A stretch of DNA of 64,000 bases from Bacteroidales bacterium Phil12. GTDB taxonomy: Bacteria; Bacteroidota; Bacteroidia; Bacteroidales; P3. Shown in pieces: positions 1,632 to 22,822 of this stretch. Position numbers and translations under genes: made by a program. The notes below the pieces were generated by a model. The model was not told the origin of the DNA. It did not search any database and worked only from the letters and a program-made list of their open reading frames with translations. The stretch is from positions 11,015-75,014 of the forward strand of contig NWBO01000165.1 of the NCBI GenBank assembly GCA_002633275.1, read 5' to 3'. Positions within the stretch are counted from its first letter, which is position 1. Every line of letters begins with the position of its first letter.

Positions 1632-1839
1632 TTAAGAGAGACCGAAGAACAGAGGAAGTGCCTGGGCTGCCACGATGAGGAAGATACAGGCTCCGACCAC
1701 CATCATGATCTTCTTCTTGACATCCTGCTCCTCGTTGTTCATTGCGATGTAAACCGAGATTGCACCCACTACGGCAACCACACCGGCAATGGCGTAGCAC
1801 AGTTTTACCACAATGGGAACATACTTGGCGATTTCCTCG
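1632..1839 (-). pseudogene. traE: traE (DUF4134, VirB2-like) 3' fragment, cut off from its 5' part by the nested element
   Basis: The frame ends at TAA (1632-1634) and reads ..HEEIAKYVPIVVKLCYAIAGVVAVVGAISVYIAMNNEEQDVKKKIMMVVGACIFLIVAAQALPLFFGLS. There is no start codon; the frame is closed by TAA at 1848-1850 inside the element's terminal repeat. It aligns with the C-terminal half of the paralog at 15253..15585. Confidence 0.85.
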
Positions 1840-1840
1840 T

Positions 1841-1850
1841 GATTATTTTA
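1841..1850. repeat. Left terminal inverted repeat of the nested element (GATTATTTTA), preceded by the duplicated target TTCCTCG at 1833-1839
   Basis: Exact reverse complement of 15031-15040. Confidence 0.8.
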
Positions 1851-2263
1851 TTTCTTTATAAACCTCTGAAACACAATACGTTTATAAAATCATTCAAAGT
1901 TCAATGTTCCCAAAAAGTGACAAAGGCCAAATCTGATGTAGTTCGTTAACATGAACACTTGCAGATTGAAAGCAAAAGCGTAAAATAGGAAATATTCGTT
2001 AAAGGTTTGTTAACACAAAATAGGCACCCATGTTGCAAATTAGCTATTGAAAACAAGCTGCTCTACAATCTTACAGGGTGCTTTCAGGGATAAGCGATGT
2101 AAAGCAGTTTTTCATATCGATGTATTATCATAGATAATACTATAAAGGGCTATTATGTTCTTGTGATAACATGATAGGTGGACACTATGAAATAAGGGAA
2201 AGAAAATTTTGTGTTACCTGTTGAATATCAGTATTTTTACTTGCATATCTGAAAATATTTTCG

Positions 2264-2271
2264 TAAATTTG
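2264..2271 (+). promoter_or_regulatory. Candidate Bacteroidota -7 box TAAATTTG (TAnnTTTG)
   Basis: Exact match to the TAnnTTTG consensus, about 35 nt upstream of the small ORF at 2306. Confidence 0.3.
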
Positions 2272-2305
2272 AAGTAGATTTACAGACTCACTTAAAACTA
2301 TTGAT

Positions 2306-2425
2306 ATGGAAAATTTAGAAAATCTATTTCTCGTTATTTTGTTCTTCTGGGCTCTGAAAGCCTTGTTTTTGGGTTGGTGTAAAGGATTTGGTAAACCTCG
2401 CAAGAAAGAATGGTGGGAACCATGA
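2306..2425 (+). CDS. Speculative 39-aa hydrophobic peptide with a basic tail
   Basis: ATG..TGA found by hand and too short for the ORF track: MENLENLFLVILFFWALKALFLGWCKGFGKPRKKEWWEP. One predicted TM segment. Preceded by a TAnnTTTG box. No other support. Confidence 0.2.
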   Translation: MENLENLFLVILFFWALKALFLGWCKGFGKPRKKEWWEP

Positions 2426-2787
2426 CCTCACGAAATGTTAGGTCAACTGAATAATGATGCCATGTTTCAAGAGCCATATTTTAGGGCAGCGTGGATAAGG
2501 CGTTCTGTTTTGGTACACCCCTGGCGATTACTGCTACCATGTTTCGTGGTAACAGCCTTAATCGGAATGTCGTGTTTCTCGACATCATTCTTTGTTATGA
2601 CTTAATGCCTGTGCTACAATCCTCGCTCGGCGAGGTCAACGATAAATACCACTTCCCTTATTTTGCCAATTTCTATAGTGTGCAATCTAGATGAGATTGC
2701 AATAGATTATCATAACAAACTAGTAATCAGATATTGATATCCAAGATTACATTATAATGTTCCTATTTTGTAGAAATATAGCTGTTA

Positions 2788-2871
2788 GTTGACAATTTAT
2801 GACAACATTTTTGGCAAATAATTTGGAAGTCTCATTTTATTGTATTAATTTTGTTGTCAAATATAGTCAAC
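2788..2871 (+). promoter_or_regulatory. Pair of inverted 19-bp operator-like sites in front of the XRE gene
   Basis: Site 1 is GTTGACAATTTATGACAAC (2788-2806). Site 2 is GTTGTCAAATATAGTCAAC (2853-2871). The reverse complement of site 2 matches site 1 at 16/19 positions. Site 2 ends 2 nt before the ATG at 2874. Confidence 0.45.
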
Positions 2872-2873
2872 AG

Positions 2874-3185
2874 ATGCCAAATATGAAATTTACTGAAAAA
2901 ATAAAGACACTAAGAGAAGCTGGAGGATTGACGCAACGTCAACTTTCTGCCAATCTTAGTATTGATGTTGCTTTGTATAATAGATTCGAAAAAGGTGAAC
3001 GTTTGATGAAACGTGAGCTCGTATGCAAATTAGCAGAGATATATGGTCAAGAACCAGACGAACTTATTAAGTATTGGTTGGCTGATAAAGTCTACTCAAT
3101 ATTAAATGATGAAAATACTGCCGGTCAAGTAATTGAGATGGTAGCAGAGGATATACCTGAATACGTAAAACGCAGTTCTATTTGA
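2874..3185 (+). CDS. XRE-family helix-turn-helix transcriptional regulator
   Basis: MPNMKFTEKIKTLREAGGLTQRQLSANLSIDVALYNRFEKGERLMKRELVCKLAEIYG.. is a classic HTH_3 pattern. The track ORF starts at 2799, but its first 25 codons overlap operator site 1 and look non-native. ATG at 2874 (or 2883) is preferred. Confidence 0.75.
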   Translation: MPNMKFTEKIKTLREAGGLTQRQLSANLSIDVALYNRFEKGERLMKRELVCKLAEIYGQEPDELIKYWLADKVYSILNDENTAGQVIEMVAEDIPEYVKRSSI

Positions 3186-3187
3186 AT

Positions 3188-4051
3188 ATGGAGATAAAAG
3201 AATCTTTGAGATTGCTTGTAGAAAGATTTCAACAAGCAAAAGCAAATGGAGGTTTAGATTTGTCTTCGGAAGCTACAATGCGTGCCTGGATTGACGAACT
3301 CTTGGCACTCTTCGGCTGGGATGTACAAAACACACACCAGGTATTGACCGAGCACACATTAGGGAAGCAGGAACGCAAGAAGCTCCATGAAATTGGCTCA
3401 ACAAACACTTGCCCCGACTACACATTAGTTAACGGTAATGTCGCGTTAGCTTTTGTTGATGCTAAAAGTCTTGATGTTGACATAGAGAATGACAAAAGTG
3501 TTTCTTTTCAAATTCGTTCTTATGGCTGGTCTGTAGGGGCACAATATTCTATCGTGACAAACTTTAACACATTGTCAATATATGATTGTCAGTGGATGCC
3601 ACGTATAGATGATGAAGCAAATAGTGCTCGACTCTATTTCTACAACAGCACTGAATATGTAGAAAATTTCGAAATTCTACGTATGTTCTTACTTCGTGAG
3701 AATATCATTAAAAAGCAATTGGTCTTTTCACATAGTGAGCAAGAGTCTCTTGATTACAACTTTTCTAAATTTCTTGGTGAAATAAGAATAAAATTGGCAG
3801 AGTCCATAATTCGCAACAATGAGTATGACGATTTGAATTTGGTCAGTTCTTTTGTGCAAACTATAATCAATAGAATCCTTTTTATCAGAGTATGCGAATC
3901 CAATAATTTTTATGCTTATGCAAAGAATTATGTAAAGAACTTTGGTATATATCCGATGTCAAAAGAACAAAAGAATACATTATTAGGTTTACAGTCAAAA
4001 GAGGAGATAAATCGATATGTTGCTGATTTGTATCAGTTACGTATTTTTTGA
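3188..4051 (+). CDS. PD-(D/E)xK nuclease-like protein resembling the HsdR_N / type IIG (Eco57I/PglX-type) N-terminal region; no methyltransferase module follows, so it is either standalone or a truncated remnant
   Basis: SEATMRAWIDELLALFGWDV..CPDYTLV..ALAFVDAKS..QIRSYGWS..IVTNFNTLSIYD, then ..IINRILFIRVCE, as seen at the start of the helical linker of type IIG enzymes (recalled from memory). The ATG lies 2 nt after the XRE stop (the track's TTG at 3182 was rejected). Confidence 0.45.
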   Translation: MEIKESLRLLVERFQQAKANGGLDLSSEATMRAWIDELLALFGWDVQNTHQVLTEHTLGKQERKKLHEIGSTNTCPDYTLVNGNVALAFVDAKSLDVDIENDKSVSFQIRSYGWSVGAQYSIVTNFNTLSIYDCQWMPRIDDEANSARLYFYNSTEYVENFEILRMFLLRENIIKKQLVFSHSEQESLDYNFSKFLGEIRIKLAESIIRNNEYDDLNLVSSFVQTIINRILFIRVCESNNFYAYAKNYVKNFGIYPMSKEQKNTLLGLQSKEEINRYVADLYQLRIF

Positions 4052-4085
4052 TTGTAAGCATCCAAATATCAAGTATAATATAAAT

Positions 4086-4901
4086 ATGCAAACACGAGTC
4101 ATACCAGAACATATACTGGAAAATATTTGCGACATTATAGGTGAAACGTCTACTGGACTAACAGGGACAAAAATAAGCAAATATCTTAAGGCATCAAATA
4201 TTGAAGAATATACTCCCCAAGGCGTGATGCTTGCCAAGAGAAAGATTCTGTATCATTCTTTATCAGAAAAACAGAAGAATGATAAATGCTCAAACAATGT
4301 GTTGACATTTATCTCTACAGTTATGTCTCCTGCGAATTTTGTTAACAATATAAGCTTATTTGAAGAATGGAAAATAAACATTAATAAGCAATTAGCTTTT
4401 GTTGGTTACGAGCTTCAAGATGACTCGTCATATAAAGAAATCCAAAAAGCATCTACTATATTAGATGTCAAAATAAAGACAGAAAACTTAAAGAAAGAGT
4501 TAGAATCAAGAAAAGCTCATCCGCAAATTTTCAACTATTGTAAAGAAGAGTTGTTACAAAACAACTACTTCCATTCTGTTCTTGAAGCCAATAAAGGCCT
4601 ATTCAAAAGAATCCGAGAGCTTTCTACATTAGAAAAAGATGGGCAAAACCTAATAGAGCAAGTATTTAGTGATAGCAATCCAATTGTTATTATCAATAAC
4701 TATCAGTCCCAGTCAGAAAAAAACGAACATCGGGGGTTTAGAAGTCTGCTTATAGGGCTATGTGCAATGTTTCGAAATACAACAGCACACGAGCTAAAGG
4801 TTGATTGGCCAATTCAAGAGCAGGACGCACTAGAAATATTGGGTATCATTTCTTATTGTCATGGACGTCTAGATCAAGCTCAAAGAATAAGAAACGTTTA
4901 A
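4086..4901 (+). CDS. TIGR02391 (Hypoth_Ymh)-type protein with an unknown N-terminal domain
   Basis: The C-terminal half HPQIFNYCKEELLQNNYFHSVLEANKGLFKRIRE..DGQNLIEQVFS..NEHRGFRSLLIGLCAMFRNTTAHEL..QDALEILGIISYCHGRLD matches the remembered TIGR02391 signature. ATG at 4086 was chosen because the track start at 4017 overlaps the upstream gene. Confidence 0.65.
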   Translation: MQTRVIPEHILENICDIIGETSTGLTGTKISKYLKASNIEEYTPQGVMLAKRKILYHSLSEKQKNDKCSNNVLTFISTVMSPANFVNNISLFEEWKININKQLAFVGYELQDDSSYKEIQKASTILDVKIKTENLKKELESRKAHPQIFNYCKEELLQNNYFHSVLEANKGLFKRIRELSTLEKDGQNLIEQVFSDSNPIVIINNYQSQSEKNEHRGFRSLLIGLCAMFRNTTAHELKVDWPIQEQDALEILGIISYCHGRLDQAQRIRNV

Positions 4902-4954
4902 GATATAATTCTGGTAAAAATATCACGGAGGTCTGGCACATAAATTTAGAGAAT

Positions 4955-5548
4955 ATGATTTACGTTGTATCGAAAAGGAGAAAACTTGATAGCATAAAGA
5001 CACAATATCCCAATGCTATAATCTGCGATGTAACAAGTACATCGCCAAATTCTCTCGTCAAACTTAGTCCATTTTATCCTCATATGAACATCCCCATACC
5101 ATTCTCACCAGGTTACACAGGCGCATCTGTCGAAGGTATTTGGCAAGGACTTAAAGTATTTGTTGGTGAAGATATTGACATTGATTCCTTCACCAACACA
5201 TCCATGAAAAATATCAAAAGAACTTGTAAGACTCATGGCAAAGTGTTGGGACATAGAAAAGGTATACATGGAATCGAAATATTAGACTACAACTCTGCCA
5301 AGTTGAACATTTACATTCCTTCATATAAGTGGGTGATAGAAAATGTGGTAAAAGATTTAATTAATAAAATGCGTAAAGTCCACAAGACAAAAGATTTAGT
5401 TCTGTTAGATTACAACACATGTCAAAATGTTCTTGATGACTCCAAACCTCTATCTCATGCTTACCTAATAAAAGCATATATATTGGGATTATATCCATAC
5501 AATACTGATAATCAACAATTATCTTTTTTTGACAATGAGACGTTCTAA
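4955..5548 (+). CDS. 197-aa protein of unknown function, translationally coupled to the DarT-like gene. It has a weak NADAR-like motif and is a candidate antitoxin or reversing enzyme.
   Basis: First ATG of the ORF; the track start at 4805 is a TTG overlapping the previous gene. LSPFYP..(18 aa)..ASVEGIWQGLKVF resembles the NADAR/YbiA pattern (LSNF.. then ..SxEHyfQaxKF). The stop overlaps the next gene's ATG by 14 nt. Confidence 0.55.
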   Translation: MIYVVSKRRKLDSIKTQYPNAIICDVTSTSPNSLVKLSPFYPHMNIPIPFSPGYTGASVEGIWQGLKVFVGEDIDIDSFTNTSMKNIKRTCKTHGKVLGHRKGIHGIEILDYNSAKLNIYIPSYKWVIENVVKDLINKMRKVHKTKDLVLLDYNTCQNVLDDSKPLSHAYLIKAYILGLYPYNTDNQQLSFFDNETF

Positions 5549-6428
5549 CTGGTTGAATTTTGATAGAACACTAAAACAGTTTGGAGTAGATCGGTTATAT
5601 CATTTTACAGACCGAGCAAACCTACCTTCGATTATAAAAAATCGAGGTTTACTCTCATGGGCTGATTGTGATGAAAAAGGAATAAAAATAGCAGCACCAG
5701 GTGGTGATTGTTCGTCTCGCATGTATGATAAAAGGGACAATCTACATCATTATGTGCGATTAAGTTTTACAAATAAACATCCTATGATGTTTGTCGCTAT
5801 GCGTGAAGGTAGAATTAAAACCCCGGTAGTTTTAGAAATTGACACAAGTATTATCTTTGATGACACCACTCTCTTTTCTAACATGAATGCTGTTAAAAGA
5901 GAAGCGTCCATAGGTGGTTCCTTATCTGATTTTAGTAAAATTCATTTTGATGCAGTAACGCGCAGGACTCAGTTCGATTTATCTTCTGAAGAACAAAAAT
6001 ATTTTCAAGCAGAGATACTTGTGAAGAATTTTCTGCCTCTTGAATATATATCTAATATAACATCATTCAACATTCCATTGCCATCTGATATAGAGTTAAA
6101 AAATTATTATGGCAAGCACAACTATGTGTATGATAGAGAAGCCGTAGAATTGCTTTCTGACTGCTTATGGAAATTAAGCCATACAACATATTTGCAAGGT
6201 GTTAATCTCTCCGAAATGATATTTGAGATGCTTGATAATGACAACTCTCTACAAATACATATCCGTGGAGTTCTAGATTGCGAAGGTACTTTTCACCTGG
6301 TAGTATCACAAGGTTATACTTGTGGAATGTGTTCTATTGCATTAGAACATTTTATAAATTTGTTGACCCCATTAGGAATGTTTGATGATGGCATGAAACA
6401 TAAATTATCTATTTTAATCAATCAATAA
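5535..6428 (+). CDS. DarT-like (DUF4433) DNA ADP-ribosyltransferase with an uncharacterised C-terminal extension of about 110 aa
   Basis: RLYHFTDRANLPSIIKNRGLLSW (His motif), HHYVRLSFTNKHPMMF (Tyr motif), LFSNMNA, and KYFQAEILVKNFLPLEYISNI (catalytic Glu in a QAE[FIL]LV context) match remembered DarT sequences. Residues from about 185 to 297 resemble nothing I recognise. Confidence 0.7.
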   Translation: MRRSNWLNFDRTLKQFGVDRLYHFTDRANLPSIIKNRGLLSWADCDEKGIKIAAPGGDCSSRMYDKRDNLHHYVRLSFTNKHPMMFVAMREGRIKTPVVLEIDTSIIFDDTTLFSNMNAVKREASIGGSLSDFSKIHFDAVTRRTQFDLSSEEQKYFQAEILVKNFLPLEYISNITSFNIPLPSDIELKNYYGKHNYVYDREAVELLSDCLWKLSHTTYLQGVNLSEMIFEMLDNDNSLQIHIRGVLDCEGTFHLVVSQGYTCGMCSIALEHFINLLTPLGMFDDGMKHKLSILINQ

Positions 6429-6429
6429 T

Positions 6430-7413
6430 ATGGACGTATTAAGTTTATCTAAAATCAGAACGCAAGTCTTGCAGCAGGTTCTTCCTTCGGGTGAAGAACC
6501 TATAGATATTGCATTCTGCATGATTGGAGACAATCTTACAATGTCTCCAATTGAAGTTAATGGAGACTTTTCTCCATCAAAGAAGCGTGATATGCGCTTA
6601 AAAGTTCTGAACTTGTTTCTCAACAAGGAGAATCCTGATTTACGGCAAGCAGCTGAACTTGTGTATTTCTCGTTCGATCCTGTGATGAATGTTGACTACT
6701 GTTTCCAAATTTTTCCAAACAGCAGGAATACAAATCTATTTGTTTTCTCATCTACAGGCAAAAAAATTAGTGCTTTTACACCTTACAATACCACAATAGA
6801 CGAAAGAACAGAAATTGAACGTGCCATTAAAGCTTGTGCCGGAAAAGAAAGTTCATTTGCCTCCTTACGTAGTAAGTTTTCTAAACTTCTTAGTATGTCA
6901 AAGCCTGAACAGCTAAAAGTAATTCCTAGTGCTAACTCTATCTCTATAGATTTAAGCAAAGCAAATCAAAAGTCAGAAAATTCCGAAAACAAAACAAAAA
7001 CTCAAGTTGTGAAAGAATCCAATAATGGTGGAAAAACTCCATTTGAAAGATTTGCTATAGACACAATCATAAGGTTAAACAGTCCTCAATTTGATGAAAT
7101 GCGTGATAAAAAGCAGGGGCCAGTAGCTATCAGAGAGACTCTTTCTGCCTTTACCAAACAAATGATAGAACAGTTCCCTGAGTGGGATGGACTGTTTGAA
7201 TTTCTTCCACAAGATAACCACGTTTGTATTTCGTTATCAAAAGGCTTTGATGATGAAACAACGATGCAGGCAATTCCATGCCTTTGGAGAAGAAAGTCTT
7301 TTGTTGAAAATTGCATTTTGTTTGGCGTACTTAAATTCGTTTTCCTTGACAAGGTTCACAACACTTTTGATGTATTGGACTTAACAAAAATAGATCCATA
7401 TAAGTTGCCTTAA
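6430..7413 (+). CDS. 327-aa protein of unknown function; third member of the DarT-like module
   Basis: The ATG lies 1 nt after the DarT-like stop. A low-complexity Lys/Asn/Ser/Glu linker (KANQKSENSENKTKTQVVKESNNGGK) separates two unrecognised domains. The gene is followed by a terminator. Confidence 0.55.
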   Translation: MDVLSLSKIRTQVLQQVLPSGEEPIDIAFCMIGDNLTMSPIEVNGDFSPSKKRDMRLKVLNLFLNKENPDLRQAAELVYFSFDPVMNVDYCFQIFPNSRNTNLFVFSSTGKKISAFTPYNTTIDERTEIERAIKACAGKESSFASLRSKFSKLLSMSKPEQLKVIPSANSISIDLSKANQKSENSENKTKTQVVKESNNGGKTPFERFAIDTIIRLNSPQFDEMRDKKQGPVAIRETLSAFTKQMIEQFPEWDGLFEFLPQDNHVCISLSKGFDDETTMQAIPCLWRRKSFVENCILFGVLKFVFLDKVHNTFDVLDLTKIDPYKLP

Positions 7414-7434
7414 GGCAATGATTTTTCGAAGTAG

Positions 7435-7459
7435 AGGGATGCCCCAACGGAGCATCCCT
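7435..7459 (+). terminator. Stem-loop terminator at the convergent junction between the cargo operon and the mob module
   Basis: AGGGATGC (7435-7442), 9-nt loop, GCATCCCT (7452-7459), followed by TTTCATTT. It lies between the stop at 7413 (+) and the stop at 7461 (-). Confidence 0.55.
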
Positions 7460-7460
7460 T

Positions 7461-8327: not shown

Positions 8328-8330
8328 ATT

Positions 8331-9524
8331 CTATAAACTCCTTCCTTTTCTGCGTTGTCCCAACATGGAACGATTATACTTGAATCTGAACTTCCACTTG
8401 TCTTTGTCATCGTCATCCTTGTAGCCATTACTATTGCTGGAACCGCCGCCACCTCCACAGCTGCACTGCTCAATGGGCGTGGTGTAAGGTGCCAGTGCCA
8501 CTGCTATCATCAAGCCAAGAGGGATGAAGCCTGTCTGAGCATCCTTTGATGGGATGTACTCATCAGCATCATAGTCCACATAGTGATGCTCGCTGTTGGA
8601 CTGATAATCCATCAGAGAGAAGGCATTGGGCAATTTGGCGATTGCTTTCTCGACAGGATATGTGACATCAAAATCCGGGAAGGCTTTCATGATGGCAGAA
8701 TGATAACGAGTGTCATTTATCCATAGTAACGACTCTACCTTCTGGTCATAGTAGTTCTTCACATTCTCATGTGCCAACTCATGCACATCACCAAACTTCT
8801 CAGCGAGCCGGGCATAGACAAGCGAGTTGTCGAGATGCTTGCCGCTGCACGAATATTTGCCATCAGCGAACGACACACCCATCAGCTCACGGGTGACATT
8901 GTTGTAGTGGAACTTCAACTTGATGCCTTGGTTCTTCAGTTGGTCCTCAAACTGCTTCCAATCTTCCGACTTGTCGCGAGCTATGATGACCTTATCCATC
9001 ATCTCCTGACGAAGCTTGACTGTTCCTTTCAGGCATTCCTTGTTGACCGCTTCCTTGCATTTCGATTGATGTAGTTCATATTTCTGATTGAGAGCCTTGA
9101 ACACCTCAATGTTGCGTCTGCGCTCATTGGCATTACTGATGACTTTGCCCTTTCTGTTGACCCTTGAAGCCACGATATGGCAGTGAGGGTGCTCTTTATC
9201 AAAGTGTCGATAGATGACAAACTCAGTGTCGCTGTAGCCCATCTGAGCCATGTAGTCGGTGGCAACCTTATGCATGAAATCATCGGTCAGTTTCTCCTTG
9301 TCGGCTTTGTGGAAGTTCAAAGAGATATGTTTGAAAGGCTGCTTCAAGTTATGGTCTCCAAGCATGGATGCTGCCTCAAGGCAAGCCGCAATGGTCTTGT
9401 TGTCCGTAGGGAGTACTCCGCTGCTGTGCATAAGCAGTTGCGTTTTCTTGTCCTCCTCACGAATTGCCATGATGTAGTCAACGGCAAATTTACAATTATG
9501 GGGTTGAGTAAGGTTTGCTACCAT
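8331..9524 (-). CDS. Relaxase/mobilization nuclease (MobA/VirD2 superfamily)
   Basis: FKHISLNFH..YSDTEFVIYRHFDKEHPHCHIVASRVN (HxDxxxPHxH histidine triad). It sits downstream of a MobC-family gene. Confidence 0.85.
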   Translation of the reverse strand: MVANLTQPHNCKFAVDYIMAIREEDKKTQLLMHSSGVLPTDNKTIAACLEAASMLGDHNLKQPFKHISLNFHKADKEKLTDDFMHKVATDYMAQMGYSDTEFVIYRHFDKEHPHCHIVASRVNRKGKVISNANERRRNIEVFKALNQKYELHQSKCKEAVNKECLKGTVKLRQEMMDKVIIARDKSEDWKQFEDQLKNQGIKLKFHYNNVTRELMGVSFADGKYSCSGKHLDNSLVYARLAEKFGDVHELAHENVKNYYDQKVESLLWINDTRYHSAIMKAFPDFDVTYPVEKAIAKLPNAFSLMDYQSNSEHHYVDYDADEYIPSKDAQTGFIPLGLMIAVALAPYTTPIEQCSCGGGGGSSNSNGYKDDDDKDKWKFRFKYNRSMLGQRRKGRSL

Positions 9525-9581
9525 AGGCTGTGTAAATGATTAAAGTTATTACTGGCATTCATTGAATAGGATGTATAACGG

Positions 9582-9977
9582 TCAGCTGGCAACAGTCAGG
9601 TCACCGCCTCTGACCACACGCTTGACGAGCTCAGAGAGTCGGCCAACAGTATCCTCGGCCAGAGTCTTGATAGAGACAAGTCCGCCCGGGTTGGCACGCT
9701 TGGCTATCTGATTTATATTGTTGCCCATATTGGCGATGTTCCGCACCAATATCACTTGCTCATCATTGATGTGGGATTTGACATTTGCAGAGAGAGCTGC
9801 GTCATGAATGTAGTGCAGAGGACGCTTGCCTGTCTTGTCCGCTTTCATGTGGACGATGTCACTCTCAGACTGATTGAAGCTGACAGTCCATCGTTCCGCA
9901 ATCTTCTCATCTTCATCTTTGGGAGGTATACCTCCCTTTTTTCGTTCTGTGTCTATAGTTTTGGGGGTATAACTCAT
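9582..9977 (-). CDS. MobC-family relaxosome accessory protein
   Basis: ..LVRNIANMGNNINQIAKRANPGG.. is the typical MobC (NxNQiAr) motif. The gene lies immediately upstream of the relaxase. Confidence 0.75.
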   Translation of the reverse strand: MSYTPKTIDTERKKGGIPPKDEDEKIAERWTVSFNQSESDIVHMKADKTGKRPLHYIHDAALSANVKSHINDEQVILVRNIANMGNNINQIAKRANPGGLVSIKTLAEDTVGRLSELVKRVVRGGDLTVAS

Positions 9978-10153
9978 ATAGATTGTTTTAAGATTTGTAA
10001 TAGAGGGGAAAAGGTAGCGAGGCGAACGCCTGAGGGCATCCGAAGGCTTTCATGCAGGGCGAATGCCCGTTGCAGCAGAGGAGAAGTCAGACTGCCTGAA
10101 AGGAGGTCTGGCAGCTCCGAGTTTTTGCACAAAAAACACAACCTCGCTTCCTC

Positions 10154-10184
10154 AAAAACGTGAGATTTCAAACCACACGTTTTT
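10154..10184 (-). terminator. Bidirectional-looking hairpin AAAAACGTG-N13-CACGTTTTT
   Basis: Perfect 9-bp arms at 10154-10162 and 10176-10184, 28 nt downstream of the stop of the minus-strand gene 10212..10838. Confidence 0.5.
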
Positions 10185-10211
10185 ACCGCTTTTCCGAGTG
10201 TCGAAGACGCG

Positions 10212-10838
10212 TTACAGCTGTTCCTCCATGCCGTCAAACAGCGTTTGGCCAGCTTGATGGGACTGCTGTTCGTTAGGATTATAAGAGGTGTCAGAAGCCT
10301 TACCTTCGGGTGAAACAGAAGCCTGTGGAGATGGATCTGCAGTGACTTTAGGAGCCGTAGTTCCAGCAGCGCAGTCAGCTTCCGTGGAGCCAGGAGGCGT
10401 GGCTTCGGGAGTATCGCCATGAGAGTCAGGCTGTGCGTCATTCTGATGCTCTGCCTGTCTCTCGTCAGTTGGCGGTCTAGAAGAGGAAGGCTCATCAGGG
10501 AGGCAGTCAGAGACAGCTGCCATGGTGAGCACAGAGCGAAGCTTATTAGCGTCTCGTTTGATGAGCCCCAGTTGTTCCATTTCAGACATGAGTCTGGTCA
10601 TGACCTTGCGGCTCATGTTCCAACGCTCGCTAAAAGAGTTAGCTGATGCTTCGACTTCAAGAGGCTTTAATGGGACATCAATGCCTCGTTTGCGGTCGGT
10701 ACATCCAGTGACAGACATCCCATACAACAGGTCTTTGTAGATGGTCAGATGAGGTATGCCACAGGTTATCCCATACTTGGGTGTCAGGAACAGGGTGATG
10801 GCAGAGAACTGCGCTTCTGAGATAGATTTCTTGTCCAT
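10212..10838 (-). CDS. Hypothetical protein with a putative winged-helix segment and a long acidic, Pro/Ser/Thr/Ala-rich, probably disordered tail
   Basis: 208-aa ORF. ..FSERWNMSRKVMTRLMSEMEQLGLIKRD.. looks like a wHTH. The ATG lies 1 nt from the stop of the upstream gene. The overlapping ORF 9974..10495 is judged spurious. Confidence 0.5.
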   Translation of the reverse strand: MDKKSISEAQFSAITLFLTPKYGITCGIPHLTIYKDLLYGMSVTGCTDRKRGIDVPLKPLEVEASANSFSERWNMSRKVMTRLMSEMEQLGLIKRDANKLRSVLTMAAVSDCLPDEPSSSRPPTDERQAEHQNDAQPDSHGDTPEATPPGSTEADCAAGTTAPKVTADPSPQASVSPEGKASDTSYNPNEQQSHQAGQTLFDGMEEQL

Positions 10839-10839
10839 A

Positions 10840-11169
10840 TTAGTGTCTGTTAAGGTGAGTAAAATGTTTGTCTAATTGTTGTGCGATGTTGGGCGCCGCG
10901 ATGGTAGTTATTTCACGCAAGACATCACCCAGTCTATCACGAGGAATGCTCTCCATGTAGAGATACACAATAGCCATCGCAGCTCCGTAACGTAATGAAT
11001 CGTGGGCCAGTTGGCTAATAGGAGTATCATCTGATGCCTCTTTGTCAAAAGCAAAGTCGAAGAAGGTTTCCATGCGAATTTTCATAGCTTCGAGATTTTT
11101 GTTGGTCTGCGCCCATTCAATCATTGAGTTGATGGCTGCATTTTTCATGTTTACAATAGGATTGTTCAT
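10840..11169 (-). CDS. Hypothetical 109-aa protein, paralog of 11433..11738
   Basis: Shared pattern with 11433..11738: AINSMIEWAQTNKNLEAMKIRMETFF versus AVDAAVHWAKTGQGYFAMRNRVEEYF. Confidence 0.5.
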   Translation of the reverse strand: MNNPIVNMKNAAINSMIEWAQTNKNLEAMKIRMETFFDFAFDKEASDDTPISQLAHDSLRYGAAMAIVYLYMESIPRDRLGDVLREITTIAAPNIAQQLDKHFTHLNRH

Positions 11170-11432
11170 TTTTTATAGATTATAAAATATGTTAGTAATT
11201 TCTGTTGCCCTGCCCGGTGATTTACCAAGCAGCGCACAGATTGTTATCCTGAAAGTCATTGATATATAACAGTCCATCATAGACAGTGCTTGATTGGAAA
11301 GCCTCGAAACCTGCCACGACCAACTGACCATGCAATAGTCAGCGGTCATGGCGAGGTGAGGATCATCCCTTAATCAACATCTATGAAAGAAACAAGTAAC
11401 ATCTAAAAGGGGTCAATAGATAAAGGCTTCGG

Positions 11433-11738
11433 TCAGCGATGAACTTCACGCACCACATTATTGGGCAAGTCGGAGGCGATGTCCCGGATCTCACAATCGA
11501 GTTTGGAGAGTTCGGCAGGGCTCAGGGGCATGATGCACTTCGTCATCAGACTGTGCATTGCCAGCTTCCGACTGTTGTTCACAAACCAGAGACTTGGGTC
11601 TTTGTCGGGAGTAGAGGCAACAAAGTATTCTTCGACTCTGTTCCTCATGGCAAAGTAGCCTTGGCCCGTCTTCGCCCAATGTACTGCCGCATCCACTGCT
11701 GATTTCAACAGGTTTTCACGTTGAGTATCGTTATCCAT
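11433..11738 (-). CDS. Hypothetical 101-aa protein, paralog of 10840..11169
   Basis: See the paralog entry. Several antisense ORFs in the track overlap this gene and are shorter. Confidence 0.5.
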   Translation of the reverse strand: MDNDTQRENLLKSAVDAAVHWAKTGQGYFAMRNRVEEYFVASTPDKDPSLWFVNNSRKLAMHSLMTKCIMPLSPAELSKLDCEIRDIASDLPNNVVREVHR

Positions 11739-11789
11739 AAGCGGTATAAGATTTCAAGGTTATCTAATATGAGGGACAAGAGAATGGGG

Positions 11790-12089
11790 TCATCGCTGCC
11801 TGAGGATGTTGTCAATATCCGACTTGGCATAGAGTCTGCAACGTCCCATCTTGGATGGAACCAGGTAGCCGGACTTCGCCCACGATGCCAGTGTGCCAGG
11901 GCTCACATGACACAACTTTGCTGTCTCTTCTGCAGTGAGCCATTGCTCGTCCGTGTTGGCCTGCTCCTGTTTGTGGGCATCCATTTCTCTTGTCTTCTCA
12001 ATCAGCTTCTCTGCAAACTTGACAAGGTCTTCGGCGGAGACTTCAAGCTTCACTCGACCGCCTGCTTCAATTACGCTGTATAAATCCAT
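11790..12089 (-). CDS. Excisionase-like HTH (HTH_17/MerR-type) DNA-binding protein
   Basis: ..WLTAEETAKLCHVSPGTLASWAKSGYLVPSKMGRCRLYAKSDIDNIL.. The gene is located just downstream of the integrase genes. Confidence 0.65.
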   Translation of the reverse strand: MDLYSVIEAGGRVKLEVSAEDLVKFAEKLIEKTREMDAHKQEQANTDEQWLTAEETAKLCHVSPGTLASWAKSGYLVPSKMGRCRLYAKSDIDNILRQR

Positions 12090-12171
12090 TTATTCTATGA
12101 TATTATTTAAGGTCTGTGTAAATAGACTGGTTTTGTTGTCCTGAAAATGTGTTATCCTGAATGCAATCTTT

Positions 12172-13485
12172 CTATTGAATGAGTCCGATGAGATTCTTCT
12201 TCATGTCATCGTCAATGGTTCTGTAGCGGGCGAAAGCCTTACTACCGTTGACGTGACCAGACATGGAGGCAATCAGATTGGGGTCTTGCACCTGCTTGTA
12301 CAGATTGCCGATGAAGGTTCTTCGAGCCATGTGACTGCTGGCAATCTCATTGATAGGGTGTTGCTCCTCCAACTTGGTGAGATAGTTGATGACAGTCACC
12401 ATACGTGTGACTCCGGCACGGGGCAGGCACTCACGGATGGCATCATTGTACTTATTTATGGGATAGATGGGGAAGATTGCTTTTGTTGGCCTGTCCTTGA
12501 ACTTCTCATAGATGGCGATGCACTTGTCATTGAGCGGAACACGAACCACCTTTGCCAGACGATGGATGGTCTTGTGCGGAATGTATTCCAACACTCCATC
12601 AATCACGTTGGCTGGAGTAAGGCGCAACAAATCACCGAAACGACAGCCAATCATGCACTGGAAGATGAACATATCCCGGAACATTTCAAGATGTGGCTCG
12701 GCTGACAGGTCGAGCTCGACAACCTTGTTTCGCTCCTCTACATCTATGAAGTATGGTGTGCCGTAAATCTCCTGAGGAAACTCAAAACCCTTAAAAGGGT
12801 TGTTGGCCGTTATTCCTTTGTCGATGCACCAATTGACAACCGTTCTCAGTCGTGTGAACACGCTCTTTAGAGTGTTGTCGCTGCGTGGCTGAGTGGGCAT
12901 CTTACCACGCTTCTTGTAGAGTTTAGGATAGTCCTTGGCATACTGATGCTCATTGACAAGATAAATGTAGAACTCCTCCAAATCCTTGCGGGTTACTGTG
13001 TCGATATTCATAGAGTAAGCCTTTACGCCCTTGACGTGCTGCTTATACATCTGGAATCGTTCAATCTTGCCAACAGTGCCAAGGTTCACACAAGCCTGAC
13101 GCTTGTCAAAGTCCTTGCTCTCAACATATTGATGGATGAGTGCGGTAAGTTTGGTCTCCTGACAAACCTCTCCCATGAGCTTATAAGCATTGGGATGGTG
13201 GAATACGAAGATAATCTTCTTCAACCATTCGCTGTCGGCTCCTTTGTAGTACTCGGCTGCCACCTGACGAGTGAGGTCAATGATGGCATTGTTGAACTTC
13301 TGACGGTCAGCCTCTCTGACAAGTGCCACCTTGGGTCGGTAGCCTTGACGCCGTGCGTCCCAGTATTTGGGGTTGATGGACAGCTCGGTAGCTGCCTTGA
13401 GGTCACAGTTCTCGTCACGCACTCTGATATAGATGCGTCCGACCTCTCTGTCATTGGTCTTGCGGATATATGCTGTAACTTTCAT
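12172..13485 (-). CDS. Tyrosine site-specific integrase (intact)
   Basis: 437 aa. The C-terminal catalytic region reads ..GCRFGDLLRL..HMARRTFIGNLYKQVQDPNLIASMSGHVNGSKAFARYRTIDDD (R..HxxR..H..Y). Confidence 0.9.
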   Translation of the reverse strand: MKVTAYIRKTNDREVGRIYIRVRDENCDLKAATELSINPKYWDARRQGYRPKVALVREADRQKFNNAIIDLTRQVAAEYYKGADSEWLKKIIFVFHHPNAYKLMGEVCQETKLTALIHQYVESKDFDKRQACVNLGTVGKIERFQMYKQHVKGVKAYSMNIDTVTRKDLEEFYIYLVNEHQYAKDYPKLYKKRGKMPTQPRSDNTLKSVFTRLRTVVNWCIDKGITANNPFKGFEFPQEIYGTPYFIDVEERNKVVELDLSAEPHLEMFRDMFIFQCMIGCRFGDLLRLTPANVIDGVLEYIPHKTIHRLAKVVRVPLNDKCIAIYEKFKDRPTKAIFPIYPINKYNDAIRECLPRAGVTRMVTVINYLTKLEEQHPINEIASSHMARRTFIGNLYKQVQDPNLIASMSGHVNGSKAFARYRTIDDDMKKNLIGLIQ

Positions 13486-13509
13486 ATCTATCTGTATTAA
13501 TGCATTTTA

Positions 13510-14822
13510 CTATTGTATCTTATTCAAAATTTCACGCTTCAAGTCATCATCGATAGTGCGGTAGCGTTCAAAGGCTACGCTGTTGGCTGCATGACCTGTC
13601 AGCGAGGCGACAAGTGCCTGGTCTTTGACCTGCTTTAAAGGTTTCCTACAAAGGTCTTTCGGGCGGTGTGCGTGGTGGCAACCTCATAGAGAGGGTGTTG
13701 TTCCTCTTCTCTCGTCAGAGGGTTGAGAATCGTCACCATTCGGGTGATGCCAGCCATCTGTAAGCAGCATCTGATGTAGCTGCCGTAGCCATGCTTATCA
13801 AAATGAGGGAAAAGGCGTTTGCCGAGTCCTTCATATTTGGCGATTATGGCCAGAGCCTTGTCGGCAAGAAGCACACGCACAAGCTCGCTGCGATTATTCG
13901 CCAGGTTCTTGCCCGGTACATATTCAAGCCATCCGTCTTTGATATTGTCTCTTGTCAGTCGGAAGAGGTCTCCCTGACGGCATCCGACAAAGCACTGAAA
14001 TACAAAGATGTCACGCACAAGGTCTATCTGTGGAACATAGGAAAAGTCGTACTCATAGAGTTGGTCACGCTCCTCAATGCTGAGATAGTATGGTGTCCCA
14101 TATATACGCTGCTCGGTTGGTATATCTCTGAATGTCAAGTCTGTGTCATAACCATTCTTGACCGTCCAATTCAAGAAGGCCTTGAGTCTCTGACAACAAC
14201 TGCTTATAGAATTCTTTGATGATGGCACTATCGTGCGTCTGTACAGTGTGAACTGCTGATAGAACTCAGGATAGTGGCAGAAGTAGTCGTGTTCATTATA
14301 ATGGTAGTGAAGAAAGTCATCAAGCATATCACGACCAAAGTCTTTCAATGTGAGCTTGAACTCCTCGTTGCCTTCCATCTGCTGCCGCCAAGCCTCATAT
14401 CGGCGAAGGCGGCGACCGATTGCGATGATGCCTGTGGCATTCTCATGCACTGGTTTCTCCTTGGCAATGTAGTCTTCAAATATATCAAAGAACTCCGTCA
14501 ATTTTTTGGACCTGCGCCCTCGCTTCTTGGGTGAGTTATCGGGATGGACGAAGTTCTTAACCTCATCTGTGAACCATAAGAGGTCGCATCCGTTCACATA
14601 CTCATCTTTGATATGTGCTATCACATCGATGAGCTTCTTGTTTGTACTCTCTCTTACTTCTTTGGGAACCTCTGGCACATCTTTGTAACCTGGTATCGTT
14701 GGGTCGAAGTACATGGGCTCAACTCTTATACCGGTGGAAACCTTCCAGTCGATTTCTCTGCCATCACGAAGTCTGATATAGACGAGTGAATTGGACTTTC
14801 TAATTGTTGCTATAACTTTCAT
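13510..14822 (-). pseudogene. Second tyrosine integrase, paralog of 12172..13485, disrupted by a 1-nt deletion
   Basis: The ORF stops at ..HTARKTFVGNL* (13635). The -1 frame continues KQVKDQALVASLTGHAANSVAFERYRTIDDDLKREILNKIQ* to 13510, colinear with GNLYKQVQD..GH..RYRTIDDD of the intact paralog. Only 2 nt (TA) remain where a Tyr codon is expected at 13636-13637. Confidence 0.8.
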
Positions 14823-15030
14823 AGAAAAATTGAATTTTGATTTAATTTTGGTACAAAGTTAATTTGGTTCCCACAAATATTCCCAAAGAAATCATATTTA
14901 CTTCATCCTTGTTAGATTTAAATAACACTTACGATTTTTATCCAAATACCCTAAATTAGAGCAATTTACAAGCATTGTTAGTATGATTTAACACAGTTAG
15001 CAATAGTCTGATTTAGGTATTAAAAACGGC

Positions 15031-15040
15031 TAAAATAATC
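15031..15040. repeat. Right terminal inverted repeat of the nested element (TAAAATAATC), followed by or overlapping the duplicated target CTCCTCG at 15040-15046
   Basis: Exact reverse complement of 1841-1850. The adjacent 6-bp TCCTCG is identical at both junctions. Confidence 0.8.
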
Positions 15041-15201
15041 TCCTCGCTCACTTGGGTCAATGCCGCTGTACCGGCCGAATAGTCTCCTGCGGTGGTCTGT
15101 GCCATCATTGCGGTTACACCACACACCATCATCAGGCAGGTCATCTGCGCTTTCTTGGAGGTCGCAATCTTCTTTGCGAATCGTTTTACTTTTTCAAACA
15201 T
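15040..15201 (-). pseudogene. traE: traE 5' fragment (start codon, signal/TM region, first 54 codons)
   Basis: MFEKVKRFAKKIATSKKAQMTCLMMVCGVTAMMAQTTAGDYSAGTAALTQVSEE. The frame then reads through into the element end (IILAVFNT*, track ORF 15013..15201). Confidence 0.85.
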
Positions 15202-15252
15202 GCTTGTTTCGTTTTAATTGGACTTTAATTATTGTTTTACACTCGTGATTTT

Positions 15253-22685: not shown

Positions 22686-22740
22686 AGCCTGTTCCTATTT
22701 TAATGAGAAATGTGATTTATTGTCTCCGGGGGACGGAATT

Positions 22741-22780: not shown

Positions 22781-22822
22781 AAATACAAAAAAATATGAAA
22801 ACAGGCAGAAAATACGAAGAGA

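What the first reader, a model, noticed from the sequence alone, without database searches (positions are those of the whole stretch)
1632..15201. traE of the conjugative transposon is split by a 13.2-kb element: a nested mobile element with base-pair-resolved junctions
The first 54 codons of a DUF4134/TraE gene end at 15040 (..AALTQVSEE). The remaining ~66 codons resume at 1839 (EEIAKYVP...FFGLS*). Joined, they give a ~120-aa protein colinear with the intact paralog at 15253..15585. The intervening DNA starts with GATTATTTTA (1841-1850) and ends with its exact reverse complement (15031-15040). It is flanked by TTCCTCG/CTCCTCG (6 of 7 identical), as expected for a short staggered-cut target duplication or coupling sequence left by a tyrosine recombinase. 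The insert carries its own integrases, Xis-like protein and relaxase. The insertion should abolish the VirB2-like TraE and hence self-transfer of the host CTn, while the insert itself remains potentially mobilizable.
Basis: seen in the sequence. Interest (0 to 1): 0.7.

Follow-up and report, generated by a model that had tools for sequence, protein, structure and literature searches.

The report
Mobilizable element inserted in ICE pilin gene
A 13.2-kb mobilizable element sits precisely inside the pilin-like gene traE of a conjugative element, and relatives hit the same spot in many gut Bacteroidales, so traE is their specific landing site; this copy and its host element look genetically dead.

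Summary
traE (DUF4134) is split into a 54-codon 5' part (15041-15201, minus strand) and a 3' part (1632-1839). Between them lies a 13,201-bp insert (1840-15040) with perfect 10-bp terminal inverted repeats and a 6-bp direct repeat (TCCTCG). A metagenomic contig of the same ICE lineage (97.6-98.3% nt identity) has an uninterrupted traE reading exactly flank-CGAGGA-flank.

[quoted passage not shown] It carries two tandem paralogous tyrosine recombinases, an HTH_17 Xis-like protein, a MobC/NikA-like protein, a MobP-type relaxase and a low-GC defence cargo. It has no transfer apparatus.

The insertion is targeted, not accidental. In 27 of 31 informative loci, relatives 45-70% identical in the first integrase sit at the same traE codon. 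One identical integrase is found in three different traE alleles. A sister clade uses a second traE site at codon 87.

This copy is probably fixed in place. Its first integrase has a 1-nt deletion that removes the catalytic tyrosine. The host ICE has a nonsense codon in its integrase and a frameshifted primase. All 13 known copies form one clone.

IMEs that target ICE conjugation genes are known in Firmicutes, so this is a new variant of a known kind.

The parts
15041..15201 (-). traE 5' fragment, codons 1-54. It holds the signal-peptide-like N-terminus and a short mature N-terminus. The ORF runs on into the insert and stops at 15013.
   Evidence: tblastn to intact TraE residues 1-55 gives 98% identity.
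1632..1839 (-). traE 3' fragment (EEIAKYVP...FFGLS*). It holds both hydrophobic helices and has no start codon of its own.
   Evidence: tblastn to intact TraE residues 52-120 gives 97% identity.
1840..15040 (-). The inserted 13,201-bp integrative mobilizable element (IME). Its integrase genes run in the same direction as traE.
   Evidence: It is absent from the same-lineage empty site L185 and from L001-L006. The cargo half has 33-36% GC against 46-50% in the backbone.
1834..1839 (.). Left copy of the 6-bp direct repeat TCCTCG (CGAGGA in the traE sense). This is the crossover or overlap region.
15041..15046 (.). Right copy of the 6-bp direct repeat TCCTCG.
1841..1850 (.). Left terminal inverted repeat, GATTATTTTA.
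   Evidence: (pair I11).
15031..15040 (.). Right terminal inverted repeat, TAAAATAATC. In a circularised element the two arms would flank a 7-bp spacer: TAAAATAATC-ACGAGGA-GATTATTTTA.
   Evidence: The circular junction is inferred.
13635..14822 (-). Int1, the first tyrosine recombinase. It is truncated to 395 aa by a 1-nt deletion in a Tyr codon (CTTTA-AAG).
   Evidence: Alignment with 433-445-aa relatives, the DNA sequence, and relatives that read CTCTACAAG or CTTTATAAT at this point.
13510..13635 (-). Out-of-frame remnant of the Int1 C-terminus (KQVKDQALVASLTGHAANSVAFERYRTIDDD...). It contains the conserved GH and the catalytic RY.
12172..13485 (-). Int2, the second tyrosine recombinase. It is full length at 437 aa and 35% identical to Int1.
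   Evidence: Pfam Arm-DNA-bind_5, SAM_5 and Phage_integrase. In the alignment it keeps GCRxGDL, HxxR, GH and RY.
11790..12089 (-). HTH_17 / MerR-like small protein, a candidate excisionase.
   Evidence: Pfam HTH_17, E=4.6e-11. It is conserved at the same position in relatives.
9582..9977 (-). MobC / NikA-like relaxosome accessory protein.
8331..9524 (-). MobP-type relaxase. Its N-terminus resembles Bacteroides MobB.
   Evidence: Pfam Relaxase, E=2.4e-27. NCBIfam Bacteroid_MobB, E=5.5e-32, below the curated cut-off.
7461..8327 (-). Conserved 288-aa backbone protein of unknown function.
   Evidence: No family hit. A 289-aa gene sits at the same position in relatives.
2799..7413 (+). Low-GC cargo of six genes: an XRE-type HTH regulator, a protein like the N-terminus of a type IIG restriction enzyme, a PD-Lambda-3_B / Hypoth_Ymh (HEPN-like) protein, DUF6939, a DarT-like ADP-ribosyltransferase, and a 327-aa protein of unknown function.
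15253..15585 (-). Intact tandem DUF4134 paralog (110 aa), about 30% identical to TraE in the multiple alignment. It is part of the normal ICE layout.
   Evidence: The same 110-aa gene lies upstream of traE in the empty-site ICEs.
1323..1619 (-). traF-like DUF4133 gene (98 aa), intact.
   Evidence: 93% identical to the L002 homolog. Pfam DUF4133 for the homologs.
1..1224 (-). 5' part of the traG (VirB4-like) gene, which runs off the window.
   Evidence: tblastn gives 89% identity over residues 1-408 of the 905-aa TraG.
21540..22685 (-). Host ICE integrase, with an in-frame stop at 21735-21737 upstream of the HxxR, H and Y motifs.
16290..17175 (-). Host ICE primase, frameshifted near residue 173 (about 16657).
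   Evidence: Two tblastn segments in different frames. Called as 198 aa plus 87 aa in independent assemblies.

Best explanation
[quoted passage not shown] It belongs to a Bacteroidales family that carries two tandem paralogous tyrosine recombinases.

**How it got there.** The family integrates by site-specific recombination into a 6-7-bp crossover at codons 53-55 of traE. traE is the VirB2-like pilin gene of MPF_B-type ICEs. Recombination between the element's attachment site (10-bp inverted arms around ACGAGGA) and the traE sequence GAG-CGAGGA-AAT produced the two junctions seen here.

**What it did.** The insertion leaves a 5' stub of traE that lacks both membrane helices. The 3' part has no start codon. 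The element encodes a relaxase and an accessory protein but no transfer apparatus, so it must borrow an ICE's mating pore.

**Current state.** This copy is most likely fixed in place. Int1 has lost its catalytic C-terminus through a 1-nt deletion. The host ICE has a nonsense codon in its integrase and a frameshift in its primase. Every copy on record belongs to one clone. The defence-type cargo has intact reading frames.

**Shown:** the junctions, the empty site, family-wide site specificity and the three gene lesions.

**Inferred:** the crossover mechanism, dependence on the ICE's pore, and loss of mobility.
For: **Junctions and empty site**
- The junction anatomy was read directly.
- L185, the same ICE lineage at 97.6-98.3% nt identity, has an intact traE. 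Its two matches to the window overlap at CGAGGAAAT.
- The rejoined TraE gives a single DUF4134 match and is 98% identical to intact P0001.
- A 10-nt inverted repeat together with a 6-nt direct repeat occurred in 0 of 2,000,000 random position pairs.

**IME gene content**
- Integrases, HTH_17, MobC/NikA and relaxase were found, and no T4SS family.

**Site specificity in the family**
- The element with Int1 P0125 (52% identical) lies at the same codon in three different traE alleles, although its Int1 protein is identical in all three.
- L014 and L015 hold both junctions, with direct repeats CGCAGA and CGGAGGAGATTGC.
- 27 of 31 informative clade-A loci have a traE 5' fragment ending at residue 55-56. 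They include Segatella copri and Leyella stercorea isolates.
- The four exceptions sit at sites that resemble the core sequence.
- Sister clade B sits at traE residue 87 in 6-7 of 9 loci.
- In a neighbour-joining tree, clade A forms a single group. The clade-B copies fall in its sister group, which also contains L030, a copy that is not next to traE. Off-target copies sit at the tips.

**Decay of this copy**
- Int1 is truncated by a 1-nt deletion.
- No intact close version exists among 5.8 billion proteins; the next best hit is 70% identical.
- All copies are 100.000% identical to the window.
- The ICE integrase has a stop codon and the primase is frameshifted.
Against: - Int2 is intact and might suffice for excision. 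The need for both recombinases is only suggested by a different tandem-integrase family, in which the copy lacking the second integrase (MTnPi1-c) did not excise (PMC4755523).
- No excised circle or restored site was looked for in the reads of the samples that carry this clone.
- The far junction was seen for only four relatives (L014, L015, L019, L022).
- Many metagenomic loci may be redundant copies of a few ICE-IME combinations, so 27 of 31 overstates the number of independent events.
- A Bacteroides-type promoter motif upstream of Int1 shows only a consensus match.
Confidence: 0.85

Rival explanations
1. This is a one-off, essentially random insertion of a low-specificity mobilizable transposon that happened to land in traE.
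For: Known Bacteroidales tandem-integrase elements (MTnPi1-3) and Tn5520 have low target specificity (PMC5704250). The direct repeat here is only 6 bp.
Against: Five Int1 sub-lineages, 45-70% identical to the window's Int1, occupy the same 6-7 bp of traE in different alleles and different host genera. The off-target sites resemble the traE core.
Confidence: 0.04
2. A single ancient insertion into traE was followed by co-divergence of the ICE and its resident element. On this view there is no ongoing targeting.
For: The element is always in the same orientation and at the same codon. Int1 divergence is large, at 45-70% identity.
Against: - An identical Int1 protein (P0125) lies in three traE alleles whose flanking DNA clearly differs.
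- Copies at non-traE sites have matching element ends over the stretch read.
- Empty sites exist in the same ICE lineage at 98% identity.
- The same partial traE allele is hit by a clade-A element at site A in L019 and by a clade-B element at site B in L029.
Confidence: 0.04
3. The copy in this window is still excisable. Int2 alone, or Int2 together with the truncated Int1 acting as a DNA-binding subunit, would remove the element and rebuild traE, so the insertion would be a reversible switch here too.
For: Int2 is full length with all catalytic motifs. The HTH_17 Xis-like gene, both ends and both traE fragments are undamaged. Precise excision would restore exactly the sequence seen in L185.
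Against: Int1 lacks GH and RY. Both paralogs are retained full length in the relatives whose gene calls were read, which suggests both are needed. The host ICE could not exploit a restored traE because its integrase and primase are broken. All 13 contigs show only the integrated form.
Confidence: 0.15
4. This is an assembly artefact: a chimeric join of an IME contig into an ICE contig.
For: None specific. The window comes from an uncultured organism.
Against: The same junctions were recovered in independent assemblies from several samples. The junctions have a direct repeat and an inverted repeat that fit the empty site exactly. Relatives show the same architecture.
Confidence: 0.01

Closest known systems
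IMEs integrated in conjugation genes of Tn5252-superfamily ICEs in Firmicutes (IME_Sco1050_traG_site1 and site2, Tn6104, IMESp2907). Sources: PMC5357655 and PMC5704250.
   Same: These are site-specific insertions of a relaxase-bearing, T4SS-less element inside a conserved conjugation gene of an ICE, and the gene is disrupted. Two different sites in one gene are used by related integrases. They are often found in decayed ICEs. The proposed logic is that excision restores the gene.
   Different: Those elements use serine recombinases and target the VirD4 coupling-protein gene, maff2 or snf2 in Gram-positive ICEs. Here the recombinases are a tyrosine pair, the target is the VirB2-like traE of MPF_B ICEs, and the hosts are Bacteroidales.
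MTnPi1, MTnPi2 and MTnPi3, the 'Tyr duo' mobilizable transposons of Prevotella intermedia (PMC4755523).
   Same: Same order (Bacteroidales). Two tandem tyrosine recombinase genes at one end, a relaxase, accessory cargo and a size of 10-18 kb. The copy lacking one integrase did not excise.
   Different: - The two MTnPi integrases are reported to show no significant homology to each other; here the two are 35% identical paralogs.
- MTnPi elements carry a primase-family gene; none was found here.
- The MTnPi att site is TTAC-N5-AA with low specificity and multiple genomic copies, not traE.
- Sequence relatedness could not be tested.
NBU1, NBU2 and Tn4555, the classical Bacteroides mobilizable elements.
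   Same: Each has a tyrosine integrase with an excision helper (an RDF; HTH_17 type here, from my own knowledge for NBU1/Tn4555) and a MobP-type relaxase. They are mobilised by MPF_B ICEs. They integrate through a short sequence shared with the target (PMC5704250).
   Different: They have a single integrase. Their targets are the 3' ends of tRNA genes (NBU1, NBU2) or a few preferred sites (Tn4555), so no gene is inactivated.
IME_oriT of streptococci, with a tyrosine integrase, which inserts in the oriT of Tn916 and ICESt3-type ICEs.
   Same: A tyrosine-recombinase IME whose attachment site lies inside the transfer module of an ICE.
   Different: The target is a non-coding oriT, there is a single integrase, and the hosts are Firmicutes.
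Gene-interrupting prophages and elements that act as regulatory switches (for example skin in sigK, or the comK prophage of Listeria). This comparison comes from my own knowledge.
   Same: Precise site-specific excision rebuilds an interrupted gene.
   Different: Those interrupt host chromosomal genes. Excision-dependent restoration is shown for them and is only hypothetical here.

Membership tests
DUF4134 / TraE (VirB2-like pilin of MPF_B conjugation systems) | A single full-length match to Pfam PF13572 when the two fragments are joined. | tested here: met
   Profile positions 2-93 of 93, E=1.9e-30, one stretch. 98% identity to intact 120-aa proteins.
DUF4134 / TraE (VirB2-like pilin of MPF_B conjugation systems) | Gene context traE - traF (DUF4133) - traG (VirB4). 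| tested here: met
   DUF4133 at 1323-1619 and TraG at 1-1224. The gene order is the same in L001-L006 and L185.
DUF4134 / TraE (VirB2-like pilin of MPF_B conjugation systems) | Acts as a pilin and is required for transfer. | not testable with these tools
   VirB2 homology rests on profile comparison in PMC4027160. That paper reports essentiality only for traG-N.
Integrative mobilizable element (IME) | Its own integration and excision module, with defined ends and a direct repeat. | tested here: met
   Int1, Int2 and HTH_17. A 6-bp direct repeat, a 10-bp inverted repeat and an empty site. Int1 is frameshifted in this copy.
Integrative mobilizable element (IME) | Its own relaxase and/or oriT. 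| tested here: met
   Relaxase PF03432, E=2.4e-27, plus MobC/NikA. Similarity to Bacteroides MobB. The oriT itself was not located.
Integrative mobilizable element (IME) | No mating-pore (T4SS) genes of its own. | tested here: met
   No T4SS or coupling-protein family was found among 18 insert ORFs scanned against Pfam; subsets were also scanned against NCBIfam and PADLOC. Six ORFs remain without any annotation.
Integrative mobilizable element (IME) | Demonstrated excision and mobilisation. | not testable with these tools
   Only indirect evidence from relatives: an identical Int1 in different traE alleles and in off-target sites.
MTnPi1-3 type 'Tyr duo' mobilizable transposons | Two tandem tyrosine recombinase genes. 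| tested here: met
   Int1 and Int2 are adjacent and co-oriented. The arrangement is conserved in relatives.
MTnPi1-3 type 'Tyr duo' mobilizable transposons | 11-bp att core TTAC-N5-AA and low target specificity. | tested here: not met
   The crossover here is CGAGGA inside traE, with a strong preference for traE. The MTnPi att site is taken from PMC5704250.
MTnPi1-3 type 'Tyr duo' mobilizable transposons | A primase-family gene in the backbone. | tested here: not met
   No primase or Toprim hit in the insert. The feature is described in PMC4755523.
MTnPi1-3 type 'Tyr duo' mobilizable transposons | Sequence homology of the integrases and relaxase to MTnPi proteins. | not tested
   No MTnPi sequence was available. 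No Prevotella intermedia locus appeared among the best 80 genome hits.
ICE-gene-targeting IMEs of Firmicutes (traG, maff2, snf2) | Site-specific insertion that disrupts a conserved ICE conjugation gene. | tested here: met
ICE-gene-targeting IMEs of Firmicutes (traG, maff2, snf2) | A serine recombinase of the Ser_1 to Ser_4 families. | tested here: not met
   The recombinases here are tyrosine-type: Phage_integrase, SAM_5 and Arm-DNA-bind_5.

The most novel reading that the evidence does not exclude
The tandem-integrase IMEs that target traE may be obligate lodgers of Bacteroidales ICEs that work as a conjugation-coupled switch. They sit in the same direction as traE, with no predicted terminator between the traE stub and the integrase genes. 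Induction of the ICE tra operon, or of its regulators, would then drive IME excision. Excision would rebuild the pilin gene and license assembly of the mating pore, after which the IME and the ICE would transfer and the IME would re-enter traE in the recipient. The alternative extreme is that these elements are hyperparasites that sterilise ICEs while delivering defence cargo to the host. Either way, two sister clades would have evolved to recognise two different conserved motifs of the same 120-codon gene.
Probability: 0.3. Interest if true: 0.75.

Novelty: new variant of a known kind. Interest (0 to 1): 0.55.

Why it matters
ICEs of the MPF_B type are the main vehicles of gene flow among gut Bacteroidales, including antibiotic-resistance and defence genes.

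A widespread family of small elements whose landing site is the ICE's own pilin gene would add a layer of control, or of parasitism, on that traffic. It could switch ICE transfer off and perhaps on again. It would explain some ICEs that appear dead. It would also spread defence cargo such as the DarT-like and HEPN-type genes seen here.

The idea has been put forward for Gram-positive ICEs and remains largely untested. Cultured carriers found here (Segatella copri H-2632 and Leyella stercorea An906) would make it testable in Bacteroidales.

For this particular window the practical message is more modest. It shows a clonal composite of a mutationally inactivated ICE and a probably inactive IME.

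Tried and rejected
- **Element end in metagenomes.** An exact scan of JGI metagenome contigs for the window-type element end (GATTATTTTAGCCGTTTTTAATACC) gave 0 hits. No other copy, circular form or alternative site of this exact element was found.
- **Plasmid collection.** A tblastn search with the closest intact Int1 found only distant hits (39% identity or less). The best was a 15.9-kb circular Bacteroides finegoldii record carrying a single integrase and no relaxase, which is not the same kind of element.
- **RNA genes.** Rfam and tRNA scans found nothing inside the insert, so there is no tRNA-type attachment site.
- **Host identity.** Exact-sequence cluster look-ups of chromosomal proteins returned no names. 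A homology search with MnmE placed the host only as an uncultured Bacteroidales.
- **Same ICE in sister strains.** Strains with 98% identical MnmE carry a different IME at the mnmE 3' end, not this ICE.
- **Programmed frameshifting in Int1.** This was considered and rejected. The sequence CTT TAA AG is not a slippery heptamer in the incoming frame, and relatives simply have one more base there (TAC or TAT).
- **Promoters and terminators.** The sigma-70-type scan is of little value for Bacteroidales. The Bacteroides consensus motif upstream of Int1 is only a pattern match.
- **Far junctions.** The far junction of the Segatella-type and Leyella-type elements lies beyond the 10-kb flank and was not recovered.

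Full report
**1. The observation**

On the minus strand, ORF 15013-15201 encodes MFEKVKRFAKKIATSKKAQMTCLMMVCGVTAMMAQTTAGDYSAGTAALTQVSEE, followed by eight unrelated codons and a stop. The reading frame that ends at 1632 resumes with EEIAKYVPIVVKLCYAIAGVVAVVGAISVYIAMNNEEQDVKKKIMMVVGACIFLIVAAQALPLFFGLS*.

Joined, the two parts give a 120-aa protein. It matches Pfam DUF4134 as a single stretch over profile positions 2-93 of 93 (E=1.9e-30). It is 98% identical over its full length to an intact 120-aa protein, P0001, whose cluster has 1449 member sequences.

The intervening DNA begins with GATTATTTTA (1841-1850) and ends with the exact reverse complement (15031-15040). It is bracketed by TCCTCG at 1834-1839 and 15041-15046. 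In 2,000,000 random pairs of positions in this window, such an inverted repeat occurred 6 times, such a direct repeat 1779 times, and both together never.

**2. The empty site**

Six contigs encoding the intact P0001 show the gene order 150-aa gene, DUF4134 (110 aa), DUF4134 (120 aa, traE), DUF4133 (98 aa), TraG/VirB4 (905 aa). Aligned to them, the window's two junctions meet at GTGAG-CGAGGA-AATCGCC.

The best control is L185, a 2.2-kb metagenomic contig of the same ICE lineage.
- It matches window 16401-15038 at 97.6% and window 1839-981 at 98.3%.
- The two matches overlap by 9 nt (CGAGGAAAT).
- Its traE is intact at 119 aa.

In the traE sense the junctions read GTGAG CGAGGA|GATTATTTTAGCC and AAATAAAATAATCA|CGAGGA AATCGCC. 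The insert is therefore 1840-15040 (13,201 bp). A circularised element would carry TAAAATAATC-ACGAGGA-GATTATTTTA, that is, inverted arms around a 7-bp spacer. That is the usual layout of a tyrosine-recombinase core site. The circular form is inferred, not observed.

**3. What the insert is**

From the traE-proximal end, on the minus strand:
- Int1 (13635-14822)
- Int2 (12172-13485; Arm-DNA-bind_5, SAM_5, Phage_integrase)
- an HTH_17/MerR-like small protein (11790-12089)
- three small genes of unknown function
- a MobC/NikA-like protein (9582-9977)
- a relaxase (8331-9524; PF03432 E=2.4e-27; N-terminus like Bacteroides MobB)
- a conserved 288-aa protein of unknown function

The other half, on the plus strand (2799-7413), has low GC: 33-36% against 46-50% in the backbone. 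It encodes:
- an XRE-type regulator
- a protein like the N-terminus of a type IIG restriction enzyme
- a PD-Lambda-3_B / Hypoth_Ymh protein (E=3e-65)
- DUF6939
- a DarT-like ADP-ribosyltransferase
- a 327-aa protein of unknown function

No T4SS or coupling-protein family was detected. That makes the insert an integrative mobilizable element (IME).

**4. The insertion site is the family's attachment site**

The exact Int1 protein occurs on 13 contigs, all in the same traE context. All five that were fetched are 100.000% identical to the window in DNA, so they represent one clone and one event. The informative evidence comes from relatives.

- **Same backbone.** An element whose Int1 (P0125) is 52% identical has the same gene order: Int1, Int2, HTH_17, MobC, relaxase, 289-aa gene.
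- **Same codon.** It lies at the same codon (…TVTEE|I…).
- **Independent events.** It does so in three traE alleles whose flanking DNA clearly differs, although the Int1 protein is identical in all three. These are therefore independent insertions.
- **Both junctions.** Two of those contigs hold both junctions. The direct repeats are CGCAGA (L014) and CGGAGGAGATTGC (L015). A third sub-lineage gives CGGAGGA (L019, L022). The exchange therefore always falls in the same 6-7 bp.
- **Counts.** Scans of species-representative genomes and of metagenomes gave 160 further loci. Among clade-A loci (Int1 at least 49% identical to the query P0122) with enough upstream sequence, 27 of 31 have a traE 5' fragment ending at residue 55-56 just upstream of, and co-oriented with, Int1. 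They include the isolates Segatella copri H-2632 and Leyella stercorea An906.
- **Exceptions.** The four others (L017, L020, L104, L116) are at sites that resemble the core, for example GGCAGGA or TGGAGA.
- **Second site.** A sister clade (43-45% identity to the same query) is inserted at a second conserved traE site, …YIAMNN| at residue 87, in 6-7 of 9 loci. Its off-target copies share ACATCGCCATGAATAA.
- **More distant relatives.** Those at 42% identity or less are not next to traE.
- **Tree.** In a neighbour-joining tree, clade A (five sub-lineages, with the window next to L098) forms a single group. The clade-B copies fall in its sister group, which also holds L030, a copy not next to traE. 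Off-target copies are nested at the tips.

Read directly from the sequence, site A lies just before the first hydrophobic helix of TraE, and site B lies in the charged loop between the two helices.

**5. State of this copy**

Relatives of Int1 are 433-445 aa long. The window's Int1 stops at 395 aa, right after HTARKTFVGNL.

The DNA reads CTT TA-A AAG where relatives read CTC TAC AAG or CTT TAT AAT. This is a single-base deletion in a Tyr codon. The next frame (13510-13635) still encodes KQVKDQALVASLTGHAANSVAFERYRTIDDD…, which contains the conserved GH and the catalytic RY. No intact close version exists among 5.8 billion proteins; the next best hit is 70% identical.

Int2 is full length with all catalytic motifs.

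The host ICE is damaged independently:
- Its integrase (21540-22685) has an in-frame stop at 21735-21737, before the HxxR, H and Y motifs.
- Its primase is frameshifted near residue 173. The same split is seen in independent assemblies.

traF, the visible part of traG and the tandem DUF4134 paralog have intact reading frames.

The most likely reading is a probably fixed IME inside a mutationally inactivated ICE, in an uncultured Bacteroidales. The best named MnmE hits are only 60-63% identical.

In a different tandem-integrase family, a copy lacking one integrase failed to excise (PMC4755523). That supports, but does not prove, that losing Int1 is disabling.

**6. Mechanism**

*Shown:* a conservative, reciprocal-looking junction structure that fits the empty site, and a family-wide preference for two short conserved traE motifs.

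*Inferred:* integration by tyrosine-recombinase strand exchange across a 6-7-bp overlap with limited homology between element and target, excision aided by the HTH_17 protein, and transfer as a relaxase-nicked circle through an ICE-encoded MPF_B pore.

The traE 5' stub lacks both helices, so TraE is inactivated while the element is in place. TraE of CTnDOT was assigned as a VirB2 homologue by profile comparison, and essentiality is reported only for traG-N (PMC4027160). Loss of ICE transfer through traE alone is therefore plausible but unproven, and a paralog sits next door.

Precise excision would regenerate exactly the L185 sequence. There is no predicted minus-strand terminator between the stub and Int1. 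A Bacteroides-type promoter motif lies at 14854-14887. Both read-through from the tra operon and autonomous expression of Int1 remain possible.

**7. Comparison with known systems**

IMEs that insert site-specifically into conserved conjugation genes of ICEs are documented in Firmicutes. Serine-recombinase IMEs occupy two sites of traG (VirD4), as well as maff2 and snf2, of Tn5252-type ICEs. A tyrosine-integrase IME occupies oriT. The authors proposed that excision on ICE induction restores the gene, and they noted that such IMEs are common in decayed ICEs (PMC5357655; PMC5704250).

Tandem tyrosine recombinases are known from Prevotella intermedia MTnPi1-3. Those elements have unrelated integrase pairs, a primase gene and a low-specificity TTAC-N5-AA target.

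Full-text searches for DUF4134, and for traE together with Bacteroides, mobilizable, inserted and integrase, found no description of traE as an attachment site in Bacteroidota.

I therefore rate this as a new variant of a known kind. The phenomenon is known. The recombinase type, the target gene and the phylum are new.

**8. Verdict**

It needs correcting on three points:
- The insertion is targeted rather than accidental.
- The insert is probably no longer mobile.
- The ICE is inactivated by other lesions as well.

The single locus is an ordinary, clonal remnant. The family behaviour it reveals is moderately interesting and can be tested in cultured strains.

Noticed in passing
window 21540-22685 (stop at 21735-21737) and 16290-17175: The host ICE's integrase carries an in-frame stop codon before its catalytic motifs. 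Its primase is frameshifted near residue 173. The ICE is therefore inactivated independently of the traE insertion.
   Followed up: yes
window 2799-7413 (+): The low-GC cargo of the insert looks like a small defence island. It holds an XRE regulator, a protein like the N-terminus of a type IIG restriction enzyme, a PD-Lambda-3_B / HEPN-like protein (E=3e-65), DUF6939, a DarT-like ADP-ribosyltransferase, and a 327-aa partner with no detectable macrodomain or any other family hit.
   Followed up: partly
L025-L029, L118-L120, L127 (sister clade of the integrase): A sister clade of tandem-integrase elements uses a second site in the same gene, after …YIAMNN at traE residue 87. The same partial traE allele is hit at site A in L019 and at site B in L029.
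   Followed up: partly
L001 (about 12930-15700) and L006 (about 9900-13200): In related ICEs with an intact traE, the traG (VirB4) gene appears shortened. In L001 it is followed by a group II intron reverse transcriptase. In L006 it is followed by another integrase plus HTH_17 element. This suggests that other nested insertions target the same transfer operon.
   Followed up: no
window 22686-22911; L179-L184: The ICE lies immediately after the 3' end of mnmE (trmE). Sister strains with 98% identical MnmE carry a different integrase-relaxase element at the same place, with either CBASS or Mrr cargo. This end of mnmE is therefore an integration hotspot in this species.
   Followed up: partly
window 1841-2798: The cargo-side end of the insert has about 950 bp without a sizeable gene. 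It contains two small ORFs for hydrophobic peptides (about 2306-2425 and 2435-2605). There is no Rfam match.
   Followed up: partly
window 29200-36552 (-) and 58006-58080 (-): The 2450-aa ORF is a SprA-like (type IX secretion) protein, judged from its homologues' Pfam annotation. It is not part of the mobile element. The only tRNA gene in the window is tRNA-Met (CAT).
   Followed up: no
whole window: The Bacteroides-type promoter consensus TTTG-N17-23-TAnnTTTG occurs 16 times against 4.6 expected. One occurrence lies just upstream of Int1 (14854-14887, minus strand).
   Followed up: no
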